This document shows, in pieces, positions 8,837-15,533 of a stretch of DNA of 15,754 nucleotides. Below the pieces are notes generated by a model. It saw only the letters and a list, made by a program, of their open reading frames with translations. It made no database searches and was not told the DNA's origin. The position numbers and the translations under genes were made by a program. The number at the start of each line of letters is the position of its first letter. Within the stretch, counting starts at the first letter, position 1. The stretch lies in UHGV virus genome UHGV-0069791. One strand, given 5' to 3'. Source of the stretch: a virus.

Positions 8837-10344
8837 TGGCAATTCTTGATGATGTGATTGGCGTTTTTTCACCTGGATGGAAAGCGGCAAGGCTGCGTTC
8901 CCGTGCGGTGATCCAGGCTTATGAAGCCGTAAAAACGACGCGGACACACAAAGCCCGACGGGAGAACCGAACTGCCGACCAGCTAAGCCAGTACGGGGCC
9001 GTGTCGTTACGTGAGCAGGCCCGTTACCTTGATAACAACCACGATCTGGTTATTGGTGTATTTGACAAGCTGGAAGAACGGGTGGTGGGGAAAAACGGGA
9101 TTATTGTCGAGCCACATCCGGTATTACGCAATGGGGCCATTGCCCGTGATCTGGCAGCGGAGATTCGCACCCGATGGAGTGAATGGTCTGTCAGCCCGGA
9201 AGTCACCGGGCAGTTTACCCGTCCGATGCTGGAACGTCTGATGCTGCGTACCTGGCTGCGCGATGGTGAGGTGTTTGCCCAGATGGTTTCCGGGCGCATA
9301 AACAGCCTGACGCCTTCTGCCGGTGTTCATTTCTGGCTGGAGGCGCTCGAGCCAGACTTTATTCCCATGACCAGTGATGAGAGCAACAGGCTGAATCAGG
9401 GCGTGTTTGTTGATGACTGGGGGCGTCCCGAAAAATATCTGGTGTATAAAAGCCGTCCCGTATCCGGACGGCAGATGGAAACCAAAGAAGTGGATGCAGA
9501 GCGAATGCTGCATCTTAAATTTGTTCGCCGTCTGCACCAGATACGCGGGACGTCTTTGTTGTCCGGTGTGCTGATCCGCCTCAGTGCCCTGAAAGATTAT
9601 GAAGATTATGAGCTGACTGCAGCAAGGATCGCCGCTGCTCTGGGGATGTACATCCGCAAAGGCGACGGGCAGAGCTATGAACCGGATGGTAATGGCAGCA
9701 AGGATAAGGAACGCGAGCTTACCATTCAGCCAGGCATTATTTACGACGATCTGAAACCCGGCGAAGAAATCGGAATGGTGAAGTCGGATCGCCCCAATCC
9801 TAACCTTGAAACTTTTCGTAATGGTCAGTTGCGTGCCGTGGCGGCGGGCAGTCGTCTGAGTTTTTCCAGTACAGCGCGCAACTATAACGGCACTTACAGC
9901 GCCCAGCGTCAGGAGCTGGTTGAATCTACTGATGGCTACCTGATCCTGCAGGACTGGTTTATTGGTGCCGTCACCCGCCCGATGTATCGTGCCTGGCTGA
10001 AACAGGCTGTGGCATCCGGTGTTATCAGGCTACCCCGCGATCTTGACCGTTCTTCACTGTATACCGCGGTGTATTCCGGACCAGTGATGCCGTGGATTGA
10101 CCCTGTTAAGGAGGCTGAGGCCTGGAAAATCCAGATTCGTGGTGGAGCGGCGACAGAATCAGACTGGGTACGTGCTGGTGGTCGTAATCCGGATGATGTC
10201 AAACGTCGGCGCAAGGCCGAAATTGATGAAAACCGCAAGCTGGATCTGGTATTTGATACCGATCCGGCCAGTGATAAAGGAGGCAGCAGTGCCGCAACGA
10301 AACGACAGGAGCCGCAGCACACCGACGACCAGTCCGAAGAATAA
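8836..10344 (+). CDS. B: Portal protein (lambda gpB family)
   Basis: 502 aa, placed between W and the protease as in lambda. Start ATG overlaps the W stop (TGATG). The upstream track extension from 8764 is rejected. Confidence 0.9.
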   Translation: MAILDDVIGVFSPGWKAARLRSRAVIQAYEAVKTTRTHKARRENRTADQLSQYGAVSLREQARYLDNNHDLVIGVFDKLEERVVGKNGIIVEPHPVLRNGAIARDLAAEIRTRWSEWSVSPEVTGQFTRPMLERLMLRTWLRDGEVFAQMVSGRINSLTPSAGVHFWLEALEPDFIPMTSDESNRLNQGVFVDDWGRPEKYLVYKSRPVSGRQMETKEVDAERMLHLKFVRRLHQIRGTSLLSGVLIRLSALKDYEDYELTAARIAAALGMYIRKGDGQSYEPDGNGSKDKERELTIQPGIIYDDLKPGEEIGMVKSDRPNPNLETFRNGQLRAVAAGSRLSFSSTARNYNGTYSAQRQELVESTDGYLILQDWFIGAVTRPMYRAWLKQAVASGVIRLPRDLDRSSLYTAVYSGPVMPWIDPVKEAEAWKIQIRGGAATESDWVRAGGRNPDDVKRRRKAEIDENRKLDLVFDTDPASDKGGSSAATKRQEPQHTDDQSEE

Positions 10345-10357
10345 TTCCTGGTTCAGG

Positions 10358-12316
10358 ATGCAGGCTGGTCACCAGAGTGACGCGGATATTTATATTTATG
10401 ACGAGATTGGTTTCTGGGGTGTTACAGCGAAGCAGTTTATCAGTGATCTGAATGCACTGGGCGATATCACCCACATTAATCTCCATATCAATTCACCGGG
10501 TGGCGATGTCTTTGAAGGCATCGCCATTTTTAATGCGCTGAAAACACATGGTGCGTCCATTACCGTTTATGTCGACGGTGTGGCGGCGTCAATGGCGTCG
10601 GTCATTGCGATGGTGGGAAACCCGGTCATTATGCCGGAAAACACCTTCATGATGATTCATAAACCATTTGGCTTTACGGGCGGTGATGCGGAGGACATGC
10701 GCACCTATGCCGACCTGCTCGATAAGGTTGAGGCGGTTCTGTTACCCGCTTATGCACAGAAAACCGGGAAAACCACCGATGAAATTGCTGCCATGCTGGC
10801 GGATGAGACCTGGATGTCCGGTGCCGAATGTCTGGCACATGGATTTGCTGATCAGGTGACGCCAGCCGTTAAGGCAATGGCATGTATTCAGTCAAAACGT
10901 ACAGAGGAATTTAAAAAGATGCCGGAATCCATTCGAAACATGATTACTCCGCCACGCAACAGTGCTCCACGCGTACAGGATGATGAACCTGCAGCCTCCC
11001 GGACGCCAGTGCAGGCAGCAGCACCCGTGGTGGATGAAAACAGTATCCGTGCGCAGGTACTGGCAGAGCAAAAAGCGCGTGTAAACGGTATTAATGATCT
11101 GTTTGCCATGTTTGGCGGGCGTTATCAGACGCTGCAGGCTCAGTGTCTTGCCGATCCTGAATGTTCGCTGGAGCAGGCCCGCGAAAAGCTGTTGAACGAG
11201 ATGGGGCGCGAGTCCACGCCATCCAATAAAAATACACCGGCTCATATTTATGCCGGTAACGGTAATTTTGTGGGGGACGGGATCCGCCAGGCGCTGATGG
11301 CGCGTGCCGGATTTGAAAAAACCGAACGTGATAATGTCTACAACGGGATGACCCTGCGTGAATATGCCCGTATGTCACTGACTGAACGGGGTATTGGGGT
11401 TTCCAGTTATAACCCGATGCAGATGGTCGGTGCGGCGTTCACACACAGTACGTCTGACTTCGGTAATATTCTGCTGGATGTTGCGAACAAAGCCATTCTG
11501 CAGGGCTGGGAAGATGCTCCTGAAACCTATGAACAGTGGACGCGGAAAGGTCAGTTGTCTGATTTTAAAATTGCCCATCGTGTGGGTATGGGGGGCTTCA
11601 GTGCTCTGCGTCAGGTGCGTGAAGGGGCGGAATATAAATACGTCACCACCGGAGATAAACAGGCCACTATTGCACTGGCGACCTATGGCGAGCTGTTCAG
11701 TATCACCCGTCAGGCCATTATCAATGATGATCTGAATATGCTGACCGATGTCCCGATGAAACTGGGCCGTGCGGCGAAATCCACTATTGCCGATCTGGTT
11801 TATGCCATTCTGACGTCTAACCCGAAAATCTCCACAGATAATGTAAGTCTGTTCGATAAAGCGAAACATGCAAACGTACTGGAGAGCGCTGCAATGGACG
11901 TGGCATCGCTGGATAAAGCCCGCCAGTTGATGCGCGTTCAGAAAGAGGGGGAGCGTCATCTGAATATTCGTCCTGCGTTCGTACTGGTACCGACGGCGAT
12001 GGAGTCTGTTGCTAACCAGGTCATTCGCTCCTCAAGTGTCAAGGGGGCTGACATTAACGCCGGTATTATTAACCCGGTGAAAGATTTTGCGACCGTTATT
12101 GCAGAGCCTCGTCTTGATGATAACAGCCAGACCACCTTCTACCTGGCTGCGTCAAAAGGCTCCGATACGATTGAAGTGGCTTATCTCAACGGTGTGGATA
12201 CGCCATATATTGATCAGATGGAGGGCTTCAGTGTGGATGGCGTGACAACGAAAGTGCGTATTGACGCCGGTGTCGCGCCAGTTGATCACCGCGGTCTGGT
12301 GAAATGTACGGCGTAA
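10358..12316 (+). CDS. Fused prohead protease (ClpP-like, S14) / scaffold-like linker / major capsid protein
   Basis: The N-terminal domain has the ClpP-type signature (INSPGGDV, GVAASMAS). The C-terminal ~350 aa look like a major capsid protein. A single uninterrupted ORF of ~652 aa from ATG 10358, just after the portal stop. Confidence 0.85.
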   Translation: MQAGHQSDADIYIYDEIGFWGVTAKQFISDLNALGDITHINLHINSPGGDVFEGIAIFNALKTHGASITVYVDGVAASMASVIAMVGNPVIMPENTFMMIHKPFGFTGGDAEDMRTYADLLDKVEAVLLPAYAQKTGKTTDEIAAMLADETWMSGAECLAHGFADQVTPAVKAMACIQSKRTEEFKKMPESIRNMITPPRNSAPRVQDDEPAASRTPVQAAAPVVDENSIRAQVLAEQKARVNGINDLFAMFGGRYQTLQAQCLADPECSLEQAREKLLNEMGRESTPSNKNTPAHIYAGNGNFVGDGIRQALMARAGFEKTERDNVYNGMTLREYARMSLTERGIGVSSYNPMQMVGAAFTHSTSDFGNILLDVANKAILQGWEDAPETYEQWTRKGQLSDFKIAHRVGMGGFSALRQVREGAEYKYVTTGDKQATIALATYGELFSITRQAIINDDLNMLTDVPMKLGRAAKSTIADLVYAILTSNPKISTDNVSLFDKAKHANVLESAAMDVASLDKARQLMRVQKEGERHLNIRPAFVLVPTAMESVANQVIRSSSVKGADINAGIINPVKDFATVIAEPRLDDNSQTTFYLAASKGSDTIEVAYLNGVDTPYIDQMEGFSVDGVTTKVRIDAGVAPVDHRGLVKCTA

Positions 12317-12339
12317 ACGTCGCAGATAACAACTCTGAT

Positions 12340-12359
12340 GGCCCGTAAGGGCTTTTTTT
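12340..12359 (+). terminator. Intrinsic terminator-like hairpin immediately after the capsid gene
   Basis: GGCCC-GTAA-GGGC(T) stem-loop followed by TTTTTTT. Confidence 0.5.
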
Positions 12360-12402
12360 GTACCTGAAATCAGCCCCTGAACGGGGCTGTGCGGAGACAG
12401 TT

Positions 12403-12726
12403 ATGGCAAAGAATTTTGTAGAAGAAGGAAAAACGGTGGCGATTGTTGCCAGTGCAGCCATCAGCAGCGGAGATCTGGTGCAGGTGGGTGATGTTTTTGC
12501 GGTGGCGCTGACCGATATTCCACAGGGTGAAACAGGCGACGGCATGACCGAAGGTGTGTTTATGCTGCCTAAGCTGAAAACGGATGATATGAAAACGGGT
12601 AAGAAGGTTTATCTGAAGTCCGGAAAAGTTCAGCTGACTAACAGCGGCTCTGATCCGCTGGTCGGGGTTGTCTGGGCAGATGCCGGAACCAGTGCAGAAG
12701 AAGTGCCGGTAAAACTCAATGTCTGA
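12403..12726 (+). CDS. Small head-associated protein (possibly DUF2190-like)
   Basis: 107 aa from ATG 12403 (GGAG Shine-Dalgarno 6 nt upstream). Sits between the capsid and head-completion genes. Family assignment is from memory of gene-neighbourhood patterns, not verified. Confidence 0.65.
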   Translation: MAKNFVEEGKTVAIVASAAISSGDLVQVGDVFAVALTDIPQGETGDGMTEGVFMLPKLKTDDMKTGKKVYLKSGKVQLTNSGSDPLVGVVWADAGTSAEEVPVKLNV

Positions 12727-12994
12727 TCCCTTTTCCCGGCTGGCAGCGCGTATGGATGCGATCACGGTCAGAAAGATGGGAAAGACAGCCTCGATTAATG
12801 ATGTCGATATGACTGTGATCCCGGGAGAAACACTGGCAGAGCTGAATGCTCTGTCCGGACCTGCGGTCTCTCTGGTGGTGTTTTCTTCGGGATACCGCCC
12901 ACGGCGCGGGGATCGCGTTGTTTATGACGGACAACAATGGACGGTCACACGGCATGAACGCTTTAACGGTAAACCAATGATCTTTATTGAGTAA
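12719..12994 (+). CDS. Head completion / head-tail connector protein (lambda gpFII-like)
   Basis: 91 aa. The N-terminus (MSDPFSRLAARMDAITVRKMG) and an RRGD motif resemble lambda FII (MADFDNLFDAAIARADETIRGYMG...LRRGD). Start overlaps the stop of the upstream gene. Confidence 0.7.
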   Translation: MSDPFSRLAARMDAITVRKMGKTASINDVDMTVIPGETLAELNALSGPAVSLVVFSSGYRPRRGDRVVYDGQQWTVTRHERFNGKPMIFIE

Positions 12995-14748: not shown

Positions 14749-14768
14749 CAGGACGATACTCATCATTT

Positions 14769-14792
14769 GCCCCGGTTATGCGGGGCTTTTTT
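14769..14792 (+). terminator. Intrinsic terminator-like hairpin after the major tail gene
   Basis: GCCCCG-GTTATG-CGGGGC perfect 6-bp stem followed by TTTTTT, located between the V stop and the G start. Confidence 0.55.
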
Positions 14793-14805
14793 GCAGGTGG
14801 AGAAC

Positions 14806-15195
14806 ATGATGTTTCTGAAACAGGACACGTTTAATTATGAAAAACAGTCCGTGGTGCTCAGTGAGCTGTCCGGGCTGCAGAGAATTGAATATCTGACGTT
14901 TGTTCAGCAGCGAACGGCAAAGTTTGATGCCGGGGAGGGAGAACTGCCGGAGGCTGAACGACAGATTGCTTTTCTGCGGATGGGGATGGATATCAATGCC
15001 TGGCTGGTTTCCCGCTCACTGTGGAATGCGGATCAGTCTAAGGATGTAGAGACGCTTTGCGCATCCGTTATTACAACATGGTCGTATGATGCCCTGGGTG
15101 CGGGGGCGGAGATGGTTCTGTCGCTGAGCGGTATGGGGGCCATTGATAATGCCGTGGATGATGAGCATGAGGCGCTGACGCCGGAAAAGTCCTGA
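14806..15195 (+). CDS. G: Tail assembly chaperone G (lambda gpG-like)
   Basis: MMFLKQDTFNYEKQSVVLSELSGLQRIEYL resembles the lambda gpG N-terminus (MFLKTESFEHNGVTVTLSELSALQRIEHL). GGTGGAG Shine-Dalgarno before ATG 14806. The track start at 14767 would overlap the terminator and is rejected. Confidence 0.85.
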   Translation: MMFLKQDTFNYEKQSVVLSELSGLQRIEYLTFVQQRTAKFDAGEGELPEAERQIAFLRMGMDINAWLVSRSLWNADQSKDVETLCASVITTWSYDALGAGAEMVLSLSGMGAIDNAVDDEHEALTPEKS

Positions 15196-15203
15196 CGCGG
15201 GAA

Positions 15204-15533
15204 ATGCAGTTTGTCATGCGGCTTGCCCGGGAGTTCCGGCGGGCAGACTGGCGGCGGATGCTGTCGGAAATGTCGGCCACTGAGCTTGGTGAGTGGGGCG
15301 ATTATTTCCGGATGCAGAGCTTCAGTGATGTGTGGATGGATGCGCAGTTTGCCTCGCTGAAGGCATTGATCGTGAGAATGGTGTCCGGCAGCAGTGATGC
15401 TGCGGTGGCTGATTTCAGCCTTTTACCGGAAGAGAACGGGATACCGGAGCGAACGGACGAAGAACTGATGCATCTTGGGGAAGGTATTTCCGGAGGTGTG
15501 CGTTATGGACCAGATAGCCAACCTGGTCATTGA
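15204..15533 (+). CDS. T: T segment of the G-T tail assembly chaperone (expressed by -1 frameshift from G)
   Basis: The ORF lies in the -1 frame relative to G and is open from 15171, overlapping the last 25 nt of G. This is the lambda G/GT arrangement. The first ATG at 15204 is only the ORF-track start, not necessarily an initiation site. Confidence 0.7.
   Translation: MQFVMRLAREFRRADWRRMLSEMSATELGEWGDYFRMQSFSDVWMDAQFASLKALIVRMVSGSSDAAVADFSLLPEENGIPERTDEELMHLGEGISGGVRYGPDSQPGH

What the first reader, a model, noticed from the sequence alone, without database searches (positions are those of the whole stretch)
10358..12316. Single-polypeptide ClpP-like protease / scaffold linker / major capsid fusion
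Lambda uses separate C (protease), Nu3 (scaffold) and E (capsid) genes. Here one 652-aa ORF carries a ClpP-type protease domain (INSPGGDV, GVAASMAS), a low-complexity Pro/Ala/Gln-rich linker (about residues 190-290) and a capsid-like C-terminal domain. This implies autoproteolytic maturation of the capsid precursor. I recall this fusion from some enterobacterial prophages but cannot confirm it here; it makes this a mosaic phage with a lambda-type tail and a non-lambda head.
Basis: partly seen in the sequence, partly recalled or inferred. Interest (0 to 1): 0.45.

Follow-up and report, generated by a model that had tools for sequence, protein, structure and literature searches.

The report
Known phage protease–scaffold–capsid fusion gene
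This is the well-known fused head gene of Gifsy-2/mEp460-type lambdoid phages, in which a ClpP-like protease, a scaffolding segment and the major capsid protein share one reading frame; it is ordinary and present in about 39% of complete E. coli genomes (2,125 of 5,426).

Summary

It is already known. NCBIfam NF045540, [quoted passage not shown], scores 985 bits against a cutoff of 475. The protein is identical in phages Tritos and PhiR55_1 and 99.7% identical in mEp460 and cdtI. It is 70% identical over its full length, with the same gene order, to the Gifsy-2 "tripartite capsid gene" (Effantin 2010).

Three corrections:
- **Start codon:** the start is probably GTG 10289 (AAGGAGG five bases upstream, 675 aa), overlapping the portal gene.
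- **Linker:** the "100-residue linker" is a 30-residue variable Pro/Ala stretch followed by a conserved three-helix domain.
- **Head module:** terminase and portal are lambda-family. Only the protease, capsid and decoration genes are non-lambda.

One lead goes beyond the finding. A Met just after the protease domain is conserved in 120 of 125 homologues and is usually preceded by a Shine-Dalgarno motif. This suggests a nested scaffold-capsid product. That is inferred, not shown.

The parts
10277..10283 (+). Shine-Dalgarno AAGGAGG serving the probable true start
   Evidence: It lies 5 nt before GTG 10289. The anti-SD duplex is -11.6 kcal/mol, beyond the 1st percentile of in-gene background. The same aaaggaggcaNcaGTG is found 23 codons upstream in phages 1720a-02 and mEp213.
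10289..12316 (+). Probable full gene: protease-scaffold-capsid fusion, 675 aa, 73.5 kDa. It overlaps the portal gene 3' end by 56 nt.
   Evidence: RefSeq/PGAP proteins are 675 aa at 100% identity. NCBIfam NF045540 scores 985 bits against a cutoff of 475. The region upstream of 10358 is conserved at protein level. Mass.
10358..12316 (+).
   Evidence: PhiR55_1 annotates it this way. This ATG has no good SD (-2.2 kcal/mol).
10424..10861 (+). ClpP-type (S14) serine protease domain, residues 23-168 in 652-aa numbering
   Evidence: Pfam PF00574, E 4.4e-36. NCBIfam NF045542 "head maturation protease, ClpP-related", 216 bits against a cutoff of 120. phmmer to solved ClpP 1y7o, E 3.9e-16.
10589..10591 (+). 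Ser78 codon, predicted nucleophile (GVAASMAS)
   Evidence: Aligned to the AASM motif of solved ClpP chains. Invariant in 21 close homologues and 7 phages. Coordinates.
10658..10660 (+). His101 codon (MMIHKP)
   Evidence: Aligned to MIHQP of ClpP. Invariant.
10850..10852 (+). Asp165 codon (GFADQ), third member of the predicted triad
   Evidence: Aligned to GFIDE/GLIDQ of ClpP. Conserved in 6 of 7 phage homologues; Providencia phage PSTCR8lys has Asn.
10904..10908 (+). GAGGA, candidate internal Shine-Dalgarno, 10 nt before ATG 10919
   Evidence: -6.0 kcal/mol, third best of 23 internal ATGs in this gene. The motif is kept in all six other homologues that were aligned. This is an inferred function.
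10919..12316 (+). Candidate nested ORF from Met188: scaffold plus capsid without protease (465 aa, 50.7 kDa)
   Evidence: This column is Met in 120 of 125 diverse homologues, amid variable flanks. SD enrichment at this junction is 81% against 6.6% in control zones. The SD core occurs in all three codon phases. Not demonstrated experimentally.
10946..11035 (+). Variable Pro/Ala/Gln-rich linker, residues 197-226
   Evidence: 47% P+A+Q. Indels and 17-47% identity among homologues. pLDDT <50.
11036..11212 (+). Conserved three-helix domain, residues 227-285; probable scaffolding (delta-like) domain
   Evidence: Helices at 227-250, 257-265 and 271-285, with block mean pLDDT 87-96. Conserved motifs shown. 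The scaffolding function is inferred by position and by analogy to the HK97 delta domain.
11213..11266 (+). Second short flexible segment, residues 286-303. It opens the residue 286-361 (nt 11213-11440) interval in which the maturation cleavage is expected.
   Evidence: pLDDT <50 for residues 290-301. Indels in Gifsy-2 and Fels-1. The cleavage site is not determined.
11267..12313 (+). HK97-fold major capsid protein region, residues 304-652 (Pfam core 352-649)
12340..12363 (+). Terminator-like hairpin plus T-run just after the gene
   Evidence: GGCCCGTAAGGGCT followed by TTTTTTGTAC. A terminator is annotated at the equivalent place in mEp213 and listed for mEp460 and Ayreon.
12403..12726 (+). 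Capsid decoration (cement) protein gene, the partner of this capsid protein
   Evidence: Pfam Phage_cement_2, E 9e-21. The homologous gene is annotated as head decoration in mEp213, MD8 and Shewanella phage 1/44.
8836..10344 (+). Lambda-family portal gene immediately upstream. Its last 56 nt overlap the probable start of the fusion gene.
   Evidence: Pfam Phage_portal_2, E 8.7e-82. Annotation of PhiR55_1.

Best explanation
This is the head-shell gene of a Gifsy-2/mEp460-type lambdoid phage. One reading frame encodes three parts in order:
- an N-terminal ClpP-fold serine protease (Ser78-His101-Asp165);
- a short flexible linker plus a three-helix scaffolding-type domain;
- a C-terminal HK97-fold major capsid protein of the Phage_capsid_4 / Mu gpT-like family.

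Shown here: the intact frame, the two domain identities, the conserved triad, the HK97 fold of the model, full-length similarity and shared gene order with Gifsy-2, and membership of the curated fusion family.

Inferred: precursors assemble through their capsid domains into a procapsid, with the protease and helical parts facing inward. The protease then cuts away everything N-terminal of the shell domain, somewhere between about residues 286 and 361. The shell expands and is cemented by the product of the next gene (12403-12726).

Translation most likely begins at GTG 10289, not ATG 10358.

In addition, I estimate at about 55% that a second, protease-less product (scaffold plus capsid, 465 aa) is made from the conserved Met188 at ATG 10919. 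Protease-bearing subunits would then be a minority, as with lambda C/Nu3 and herpesvirus UL26/UL26.5.
For: - **Frame and domains:** intact frame. Pfam CLP_protease 4.4e-36 and Phage_capsid_4 7.4e-55. NCBIfam NF045540 scores 985 bits against a cutoff of 475. PHROG 133 matches end to end. The triad motifs align to solved ClpP and are conserved.
- **Relatives:** identical in Tritos and PhiR55_1, 99.7% in mEp460 and cdtI, 69.8% full-length to Gifsy-2, with identical gene order.
- **Literature:** PMC12315714; Effantin 2010 title.
- **Context:** decoration gene downstream and lambda-family portal upstream.
- **Start at 10289:**
- **Nested start:** Met in 120 of 125 homologues. 81% of junction ATGs have an SD at <= -5.5 kcal/mol, against 6.6% of control zones, and 62% are the best SD among all internal ATGs of their gene. 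SD cores occur in all three codon phases, at 4-10 nt spacing, spanning 20 different peptides. In the unfused relative FP_Epona the protease stop codon is followed by AGGAGGT-N8-ATG of the scaffold-capsid gene, at the same protease/scaffold boundary (gene order and domains, not aligned).
Against: - No experiment on this phage was available. Protease activity, cleavage sites and the products made are not shown.
- The Gifsy-2 paper could not be read, so what it reports on processing comes from its title and my memory of the abstract.
- In the window the internal SD is modest: GAGGA at 10 nt spacing, -6.0 kcal/mol, rank 3 of 23. It coincides with a conserved Glu-Glu, so coding constraint could explain it in the enteric clade.
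- One functional relative (PSTCR8lys) has Asn in place of the triad Asp.
- The first AlphaFold run, on the full-length protein, was uninformative (pLDDT 37). The protease domain therefore rests on sequence homology only.
Confidence: 0.9

Rival explanations
1. Only the full-length polypeptide is made. Every shell subunit then carries its own protease and scaffold, at 1:1:1. The conserved Met188 and the purine-rich motif upstream have another role, for example a structural or cleavage-site residue, or they are a relic of the ancestral separate gene start.
For: In the window and its enteric relatives the motif is GAGGA at 10 nt, a long spacing, and it is encoded by a conserved Glu-Glu. Its SD energy ranks only third among internal ATGs of this gene. 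No protein-level data are available.
Against: Across 65 non-redundant fusion genes the junction ATG carries an SD 12 times more often than control zones. The SD core shifts codon phase and spans 20 different peptides, which points to selection on the nucleotides rather than on the protein. Met is kept in 120 of 125 homologues while its neighbours vary.
Confidence: 0.4
2. The long ORF is an artefact: a sequencing frameshift or a lost stop codon in a decaying prophage has joined a protease gene to a capsid gene.
For: Separate protease and scaffold-capsid genes do exist in a distant relative, Faecalibacterium phage FP_Epona.
Against: The same frame is intact in plaque-forming phages (Tritos, mEp460, Ayreon, HannyBb and others), in 80 phage records, in 2,017 E. 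coli genomes and in 80 of 80 diverse loci. A curated family model spans the junction.
Confidence: 0.01
3. The gene encodes only a protease/scaffold protein, as many GenBank records label it ("Nu3", "protease/scaffold", "head maturation protease"), and the capsid protein is encoded elsewhere.
For: Record annotations.
Against: The C-terminal 300-350 residues are an HK97-fold capsid protein by Pfam, PDB profile and structure comparison. No other capsid gene lies between the portal and the tail genes. Other records and RefSeq call it the major capsid protein or the fusion.
Confidence: 0.02

Closest known systems
Gifsy-2 tripartite capsid gene (STM1034.3n in NC_010393; Effantin et al. 2010, Virology 402:355)
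   Same: Same order of ClpP-like protease, middle domain and capsid protein in one frame. 69.8% identity over the full length. Same neighbours: gpA-type terminase, small W-like gene, lambda-family portal, fusion gene, small decoration gene, PF13856 gene, then Z, U, V, G, T and H tail genes.
   Different: The window protein is a mosaic relative. Its capsid core is 87% identical to Gifsy-2, but its protease is only 63% identical and linker 1 only 30%. Gifsy-2 has no Met at the position of window M1.
NCBIfam NF045540 (scaf_prot_MCP1), with sister family NF045541 (scaf_prot_MCP2); PHROG 133
   Same: Full-length match far above the curated cutoff (985 against 475 bits). RefSeq annotates the identical E. 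coli gene with this name.
   Different: No architectural difference was found. NF045541 matches only the scaffold-capsid part and stays below its cutoff (400 against 525 bits). That family appears to correspond to the relatives found here that carry an HK97-type (S78) protease instead of ClpP.
Phage lambda head genes C, Nu3, E and D
   Same: Same position in the late operon, between portal B and the tail genes. Same logic of protease, scaffold, shell and cement protein. [quoted passage not shown]
   Different: No match to the lambda capsid family. Only a sub-threshold match to the SppA-type family: TIGR00706 scores 22 bits against a cutoff of 155. My own knowledge is that lambda gpC belongs to that type. 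The cement protein belongs to Phage_cement_2; no lambda gpD-family match was listed. In lambda the shell protein is a separate gene.
HK97 gp4 protease and gp5 (delta domain fused to the capsid protein)
   Different: The HK97 protease is a separate gene of the S78 family. Here it is ClpP-type and in the same frame. A decoration-protein gene follows the capsid gene here. HK97 stabilises its shell by covalent cross-links instead (PMC8538268). Whether this protein cross-links was not examined.
Nested protease/scaffold genes: lambda C/Nu3, HSV-1 UL26/UL26.5, HFTV1 gp17/gp17.5
   Same: An in-frame internal initiation site just after the protease domain would give an abundant protease-less product and a rarer protease-bearing one. 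The scheme is described in 10.64898/2026.09.13.751334.
   Different: Here the nested product would also contain the shell protein itself. The internal start is predicted from sequence statistics only.

Membership tests
ClpP-like prohead protease/major capsid protein fusion (NCBIfam NF045540; Gifsy-2 type) | Full-length profile match above the curated cutoff | tested here: met
   985 bits against a cutoff of 475, profile positions 2-651 of 652.
ClpP-like prohead protease/major capsid protein fusion (NCBIfam NF045540; Gifsy-2 type) | N-terminal ClpP-fold serine protease domain with catalytic residues | tested here: met
   Pfam PF00574, 4.4e-36. Ser78, His101 and Asp165 align with the ClpP motifs and are invariant in close homologues. 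The fold itself was not modelled with confidence.
ClpP-like prohead protease/major capsid protein fusion (NCBIfam NF045540; Gifsy-2 type) | C-terminal HK97-fold major capsid domain in the same uninterrupted frame | tested here: met
ClpP-like prohead protease/major capsid protein fusion (NCBIfam NF045540; Gifsy-2 type) | Position between the portal gene and the decoration/head-tail genes of a tailed-phage late operon | tested here: met
ClpP-like prohead protease/major capsid protein fusion (NCBIfam NF045540; Gifsy-2 type) | Proteolytic processing of the precursor to a mature shell protein | not testable with these tools
   Needs virion mass spectrometry or N-terminal sequencing. The predicted mature mass is 32-40 kDa, depending on the site.
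Cellular ATP-dependent ClpP (TIGR00493 equivalog) | Score above the equivalog cutoff | tested here: not met
   59.6 bits against a cutoff of 308.6. It has the ClpP fold family but is not a housekeeping ClpP.
Lambda-type head shell genes (gpC S49 protease, gpE capsid, gpD decoration) | Sequence membership of the lambda gpC, gpE and gpD families | tested here: not met
Lambda-type packaging and tail modules | gpA terminase, lambda-family portal, and Z, U, V and G tail proteins | tested here: met
   Pfam GpA_ATPase/GpA_nuclease, Phage_portal_2, Minor_tail_Z, Phage_tail_U, Phage_TTP_12 and Phage_TAC_2.
Nested protease/scaffold gene arrangement (lambda C/Nu3 type) | Conserved in-frame start codon with a ribosome-binding site just downstream of the protease domain | tested here: inconclusive
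   Strong for the family: Met in 120 of 125 homologues; SD in 81% against 6.6% of controls; cores in all codon phases. Modest in the window: GAGGA at 10 nt, -6.0 kcal/mol.
Nested protease/scaffold gene arrangement (lambda C/Nu3 type) | Two protein products from one frame | not testable with these tools
   Needs a western blot, proteomics or initiation-site profiling.

The most novel reading that the evidence does not exclude
The tripartite gene may really be a nested pair. The full-length protease-scaffold-capsid protein would be the minor product. A conserved internal ribosome-binding site and ATG at the protease/scaffold junction (10919 in the window) would produce the bulk scaffold-capsid subunit. 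This would set the protease dose per procapsid, in both the ClpP-type and the S78-type fusion families. I found no statement of this in the literature I could search, but I could not read the Gifsy-2 paper, so it may already have been noted.
Probability: 0.5. Interest if true: 0.45.

Novelty: already known. Interest (0 to 1): 0.2.

Why it matters
As given, the finding adds nothing new. The fusion was described in Gifsy-2 in 2010, has a curated NCBIfam model, and is annotated under that name in thousands of genomes.

Its practical value lies in three annotation points:
- Public phage records label this gene inconsistently: Nu3, protease C, protease/scaffold, terminase, major capsid protein.
- Three different start codons are in use: 10193, 10289 and 10358 in window coordinates.
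- Many records therefore lack any gene called the capsid protein.

The internal-start lead, if confirmed, would explain how a fused gene avoids putting a protease on every one of the roughly 415 shell subunits. It would also extend the lambda/herpesvirus nested-gene scheme to a large phage group.

Tried and rejected
- **First AlphaFold run.** The full-length 675-aa protein was folded with 21 close homologues (76-100% identity). It gave pLDDT 37 and was not used.
- **Second database search.** A search with a mixed capsid-domain alignment (A2) returned only enterobacterial proteins at 73-100% identity and added no diversity. A third search with distant members only (A3) solved this.
- **Single-sequence PDB search.** The capsid domain alone gave only a marginal hit (2.6e-4). 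The profile search was needed.
- **Gifsy-2 paper.** It is not held, and no reference list gave a PMC id for it.
- **Literature searches.** Searches for the fusion and for internal starts found no study of this gene's products. The Phage_Finder and CBASS papers were irrelevant.
- **Other internal starts.** Other in-frame ATG or GTG codons with SD-like upstream sequence (residues 114, 513, 626) were not pursued. Of the homologue scan over residues 150-360, only Met188 recurs in all seven.
- **Promoters.** A scan of 10000-12800 found none.
- **Cleavage site.** I considered locating it by comparison with the 304-residue solved Mu-gpT-type capsid protein, whose residue 12 aligns near window residue 372. 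This gives only a bound, not a site.
Full report

Yes. Window 10358-12316 on the + strand translates into 652 residues followed by a stop, with no internal stop. The frame is open from 10088.

- Pfam places a CLP_protease domain at residues 23-168 (E 4.4e-36) and a Phage_capsid_4 domain at 352-649 (E 7.4e-55). There is a weaker Mu-like gpT match.
- PHROG 133 matches from end to end.
In phmmer alignments to solved ClpP structures (best 1y7o, E 3.9e-16), AASM, MIHKP and GFAD line up with the ClpP motifs AASM, MIHQP and GF/LID that I recognise as holding its Ser, His and Asp.
- In 652-residue numbering these are Ser78, His101 and Asp165. They are invariant in 21 close homologues. Among seven phage homologues the only exception is Asn for the Asp in Providencia phage PSTCR8lys.

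**2. Is it an artefact?**

No.

- The same uninterrupted frame occurs in 80 phage records at >=80% coverage, from E. coli, Salmonella, Klebsiella, Providencia, Hafnia and Pseudomonas phages.
- It occurs in 2,017 of 5,426 complete E. coli genomes at >=80% coverage. RefSeq calls it [quoted passage not shown] there.
- In all 80 untruncated loci examined (13 annotated phage records, 66 viral contigs and the window), at least 280 codons are open upstream of the capsid domain.

**3. What is it?**

The window is a lambdoid E. coli phage of the mEp460/cdtI/Tritos group. The 2.3-kb stretch around the gene is 100% identical at the DNA level to phage PhiR55_1 and 99-99.9% identical to Tritos, mEp460, cdtI, Ayreon and others.

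The protein is 69.8% identical over its whole length to Gifsy-2 STM1034.3n. The gene order is the same in both: gpA-type terminase, small W-like gene, lambda-family portal, fusion gene, small decoration gene, PF13856 gene, then the Z, U, V, G, T and H tail genes.

That Gifsy-2 gene is the subject of Effantin et al. [quoted passage not shown] I saw the title in reference lists, but the paper itself is not held. From memory of its abstract, it describes a ClpP-like protease, a central domain of about 200 residues with a possible scaffolding role, and the capsid protein. It reports T=7 capsids fitted with HK97 capsid and lambda gpD models.

[quoted passage not shown] It adds that the tail proteins of mEp213's close relative LLS are lambda-like (PMC12315714).

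NCBIfam has a curated model for exactly this architecture, NF045540. It scores 985 bits against a cutoff of 475.

**4. The capsid domain.**

- A profile of 14 capsid domains hits solved capsid proteins by sequence: 8rkc_A (Mu GpT-domain protein, E 9e-15) and 9jod_A (E 6e-12).
- An AlphaFold model of residues 188-652, built on 125 diverse homologues, has mean pLDDT 85.7 and pTM 0.72.
- Foldseek against the PDB gives 350 hits at E<=1e-3. The top ones are encapsulins and phage capsid proteins, including HK97 Head I and II.

So the C-terminal part is an HK97-fold shell protein.

**5. The middle part.**

- Residues 197-226 are 47% Pro+Ala+Gln. They carry indels and are 17-47% identical among homologues. 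The model has low confidence there.
- Residues 227-285 are conserved and form three helices (227-250, 257-265, 271-285), mostly at pLDDT above 90.
- A second short low-confidence stretch follows, at about 286-303.

By position and by analogy with the HK97 delta domain, the helical part is the likely scaffolding element. This is inference.

**6. The start codon.**

ATG 10358 has no ribosome-binding site (anti-SD duplex -2.2 kcal/mol, the gene's background mean). GTG 10289 has AAGGAGG five bases upstream (-11.6 kcal/mol, beyond the first percentile).

- The same SD-GTG sits 23 codons upstream in 1720a-02 and mEp213.
- Gifsy-2, Fels-1 and MD8 have Ile where the window has M1, so they cannot start there.
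- The tripeptide S-W-[F/Y] just before M1 is invariant in all seven, with synonymous changes (tcc/tcg/agt; agg/cgc), although it lies after the portal stop.
- RefSeq proteins are 675 aa.

The gene therefore most likely spans 10289-12316 and overlaps the portal gene by 56 nt. Public records use three different starts: 10193, 10289 and 10358 in window coordinates.

**7. A lead beyond the finding: a nested start.**

In the 125-sequence alignment, the column of Met188 (ATG 10919, just after the protease domain) is Met in 120 sequences, although its neighbours are highly variable. This holds for fusions carrying a ClpP-type protease and for those carrying an HK97-type S78 protease.

I then took DNA for 80 complete fusion genes, which reduce to 65 non-redundant ones:

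- 58 of the 65 have an in-frame ATG within 20 codons of this junction.
- 81% of those 58 are preceded by an SD-like sequence (<= -5.5 kcal/mol), against 6.6% of control zones of equal width in the same genes.
- In 62% it is the best SD of all internal ATGs of the gene.
- The SD core lies 4-10 nt from the ATG, occurs in all three codon phases, and spans 20 different peptides (EE, QE, KE, LE, RG, RS, PRK and others). The conservation is therefore in the nucleotides, not in the protein.
- In the unfused relative FP_Epona, the protease gene ends in TAG, followed by AGGAGGT-N8-ATG of the scaffold-capsid gene, at the same protease/scaffold boundary judged by gene order and domains; its start was not aligned to Met188.

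The simplest reading is that the fusion genes keep a working internal start, which gives a protease-less scaffold-capsid protein (465 aa, 50.7 kDa in the window). This would be analogous to lambda C/Nu3, HSV-1 UL26/UL26.5 and HFTV1 gp17/gp17.5.

In the window itself the signal is modest: GAGGA at 10 nt, -6.0 kcal/mol, third of 23 internal ATGs. It also coincides with a conserved Glu-Glu. I put the probability at about 0.5-0.55. No product was observed, and I could not check whether the 2010 paper already discusses this.

**8. Mechanism.**

Shown: the domain identities, the conserved triad, the fold, the gene context and the family membership.

Inferred:
- Precursors co-assemble through their capsid domains, with the protease and helices inside.
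- The protease removes everything N-terminal of the shell domain, somewhere between residues 286 and 361. The bound comes from the flexible segment and from the alignment to the 304-residue solved Mu-gpT-type protein.
- The expanded shell is then cemented by the Phage_cement_2 protein encoded at 12403-12726.

**9. Mosaic claim.**

Partly right. The tail genes (Z, U, V, G) are lambda-family, but so are the large terminase and the portal. Only the protease, capsid and decoration genes are of another type.

The fusion gene is itself mosaic. Its protease is 90% identical to the Stx-phage type (1720a-02), but its capsid core is only 69% identical to that type. Against Fels-1 the figures are 64% and 93%.

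**10. Verdict.**

The finding is already known and very common. Interest is low as stated. The corrected start and the probable nested start are the only additions.

Noticed in passing
window 10289-10344: The probable start of the fusion gene (GTG 10289, with SD at 10277-10283) lies inside the 3' end of the portal gene, in another frame. This is a 56-nt overlap. Public records use three different starts for this gene (10193, 10289, 10358).
   Followed up: yes
window 10358-12316 compared with L004 (1720a-02) and L006 (Fels-1): The gene is mosaic internally. The protease part is 90% identical to the Stx-phage type and 64% to Fels-1. The capsid core is 69% and 93% identical respectively. This implies a recombination joint inside the fusion gene, near the linker.
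   Followed up: partly
window 12340-12363: A terminator-like GC hairpin with a T-run sits between the capsid gene and the decoration gene, in the middle of the late operon. A terminator is annotated at the same place in mEp213, and listed for mEp460 and Ayreon. Its role (attenuation or mRNA stabilisation) was not examined.
   Followed up: partly
L007 (Providencia phage PSTCR8lys), residue aligned to window Asp165: This isolated phage has Asn instead of the third triad residue (GFAN in place of GFAD). The Asp may therefore be dispensable in these prohead proteases.
   Followed up: no
P0188-P0307; L009-L012, L015: Closely related capsid domains (55-60% identical to each other) are fused to either a ClpP-type (PF00574) or an HK97-type S78 (PF04586) protease. 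The protease module has apparently been exchanged within the same fusion layout. FP_Epona (L013) has the unfused version, and the archaeal virus Blf4 (L014) has the capsid domain alone.
   Followed up: partly
P0006, P0033, P0034, P0061, P0064, P0068, P0080, P0081: Some database "proteins" of 800-1135 aa join this fusion protein to terminase, portal or tail-protein domains. Most are from one or two contigs (P0061 and P0081 from 37 and 18). They are probably frameshift, assembly or gene-calling artefacts.
   Followed up: no
window 12719-12994: The small gene after the decoration gene hits Pfam PF13856. That family is named "Gifsy-2" and described as an "ATP-binding sugar transporter from pro-phage". 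By position, and by a weak Phage_attach match, it is more likely a head-tail joining protein, so the Pfam description looks misleading.
   Followed up: no
window 14767-15533: Lambda-like G and T tail-chaperone ORFs follow each other (128 and 109 aa). They would be expected to use the lambda-type programmed frameshift. The slippery site was not searched for.
   Followed up: no
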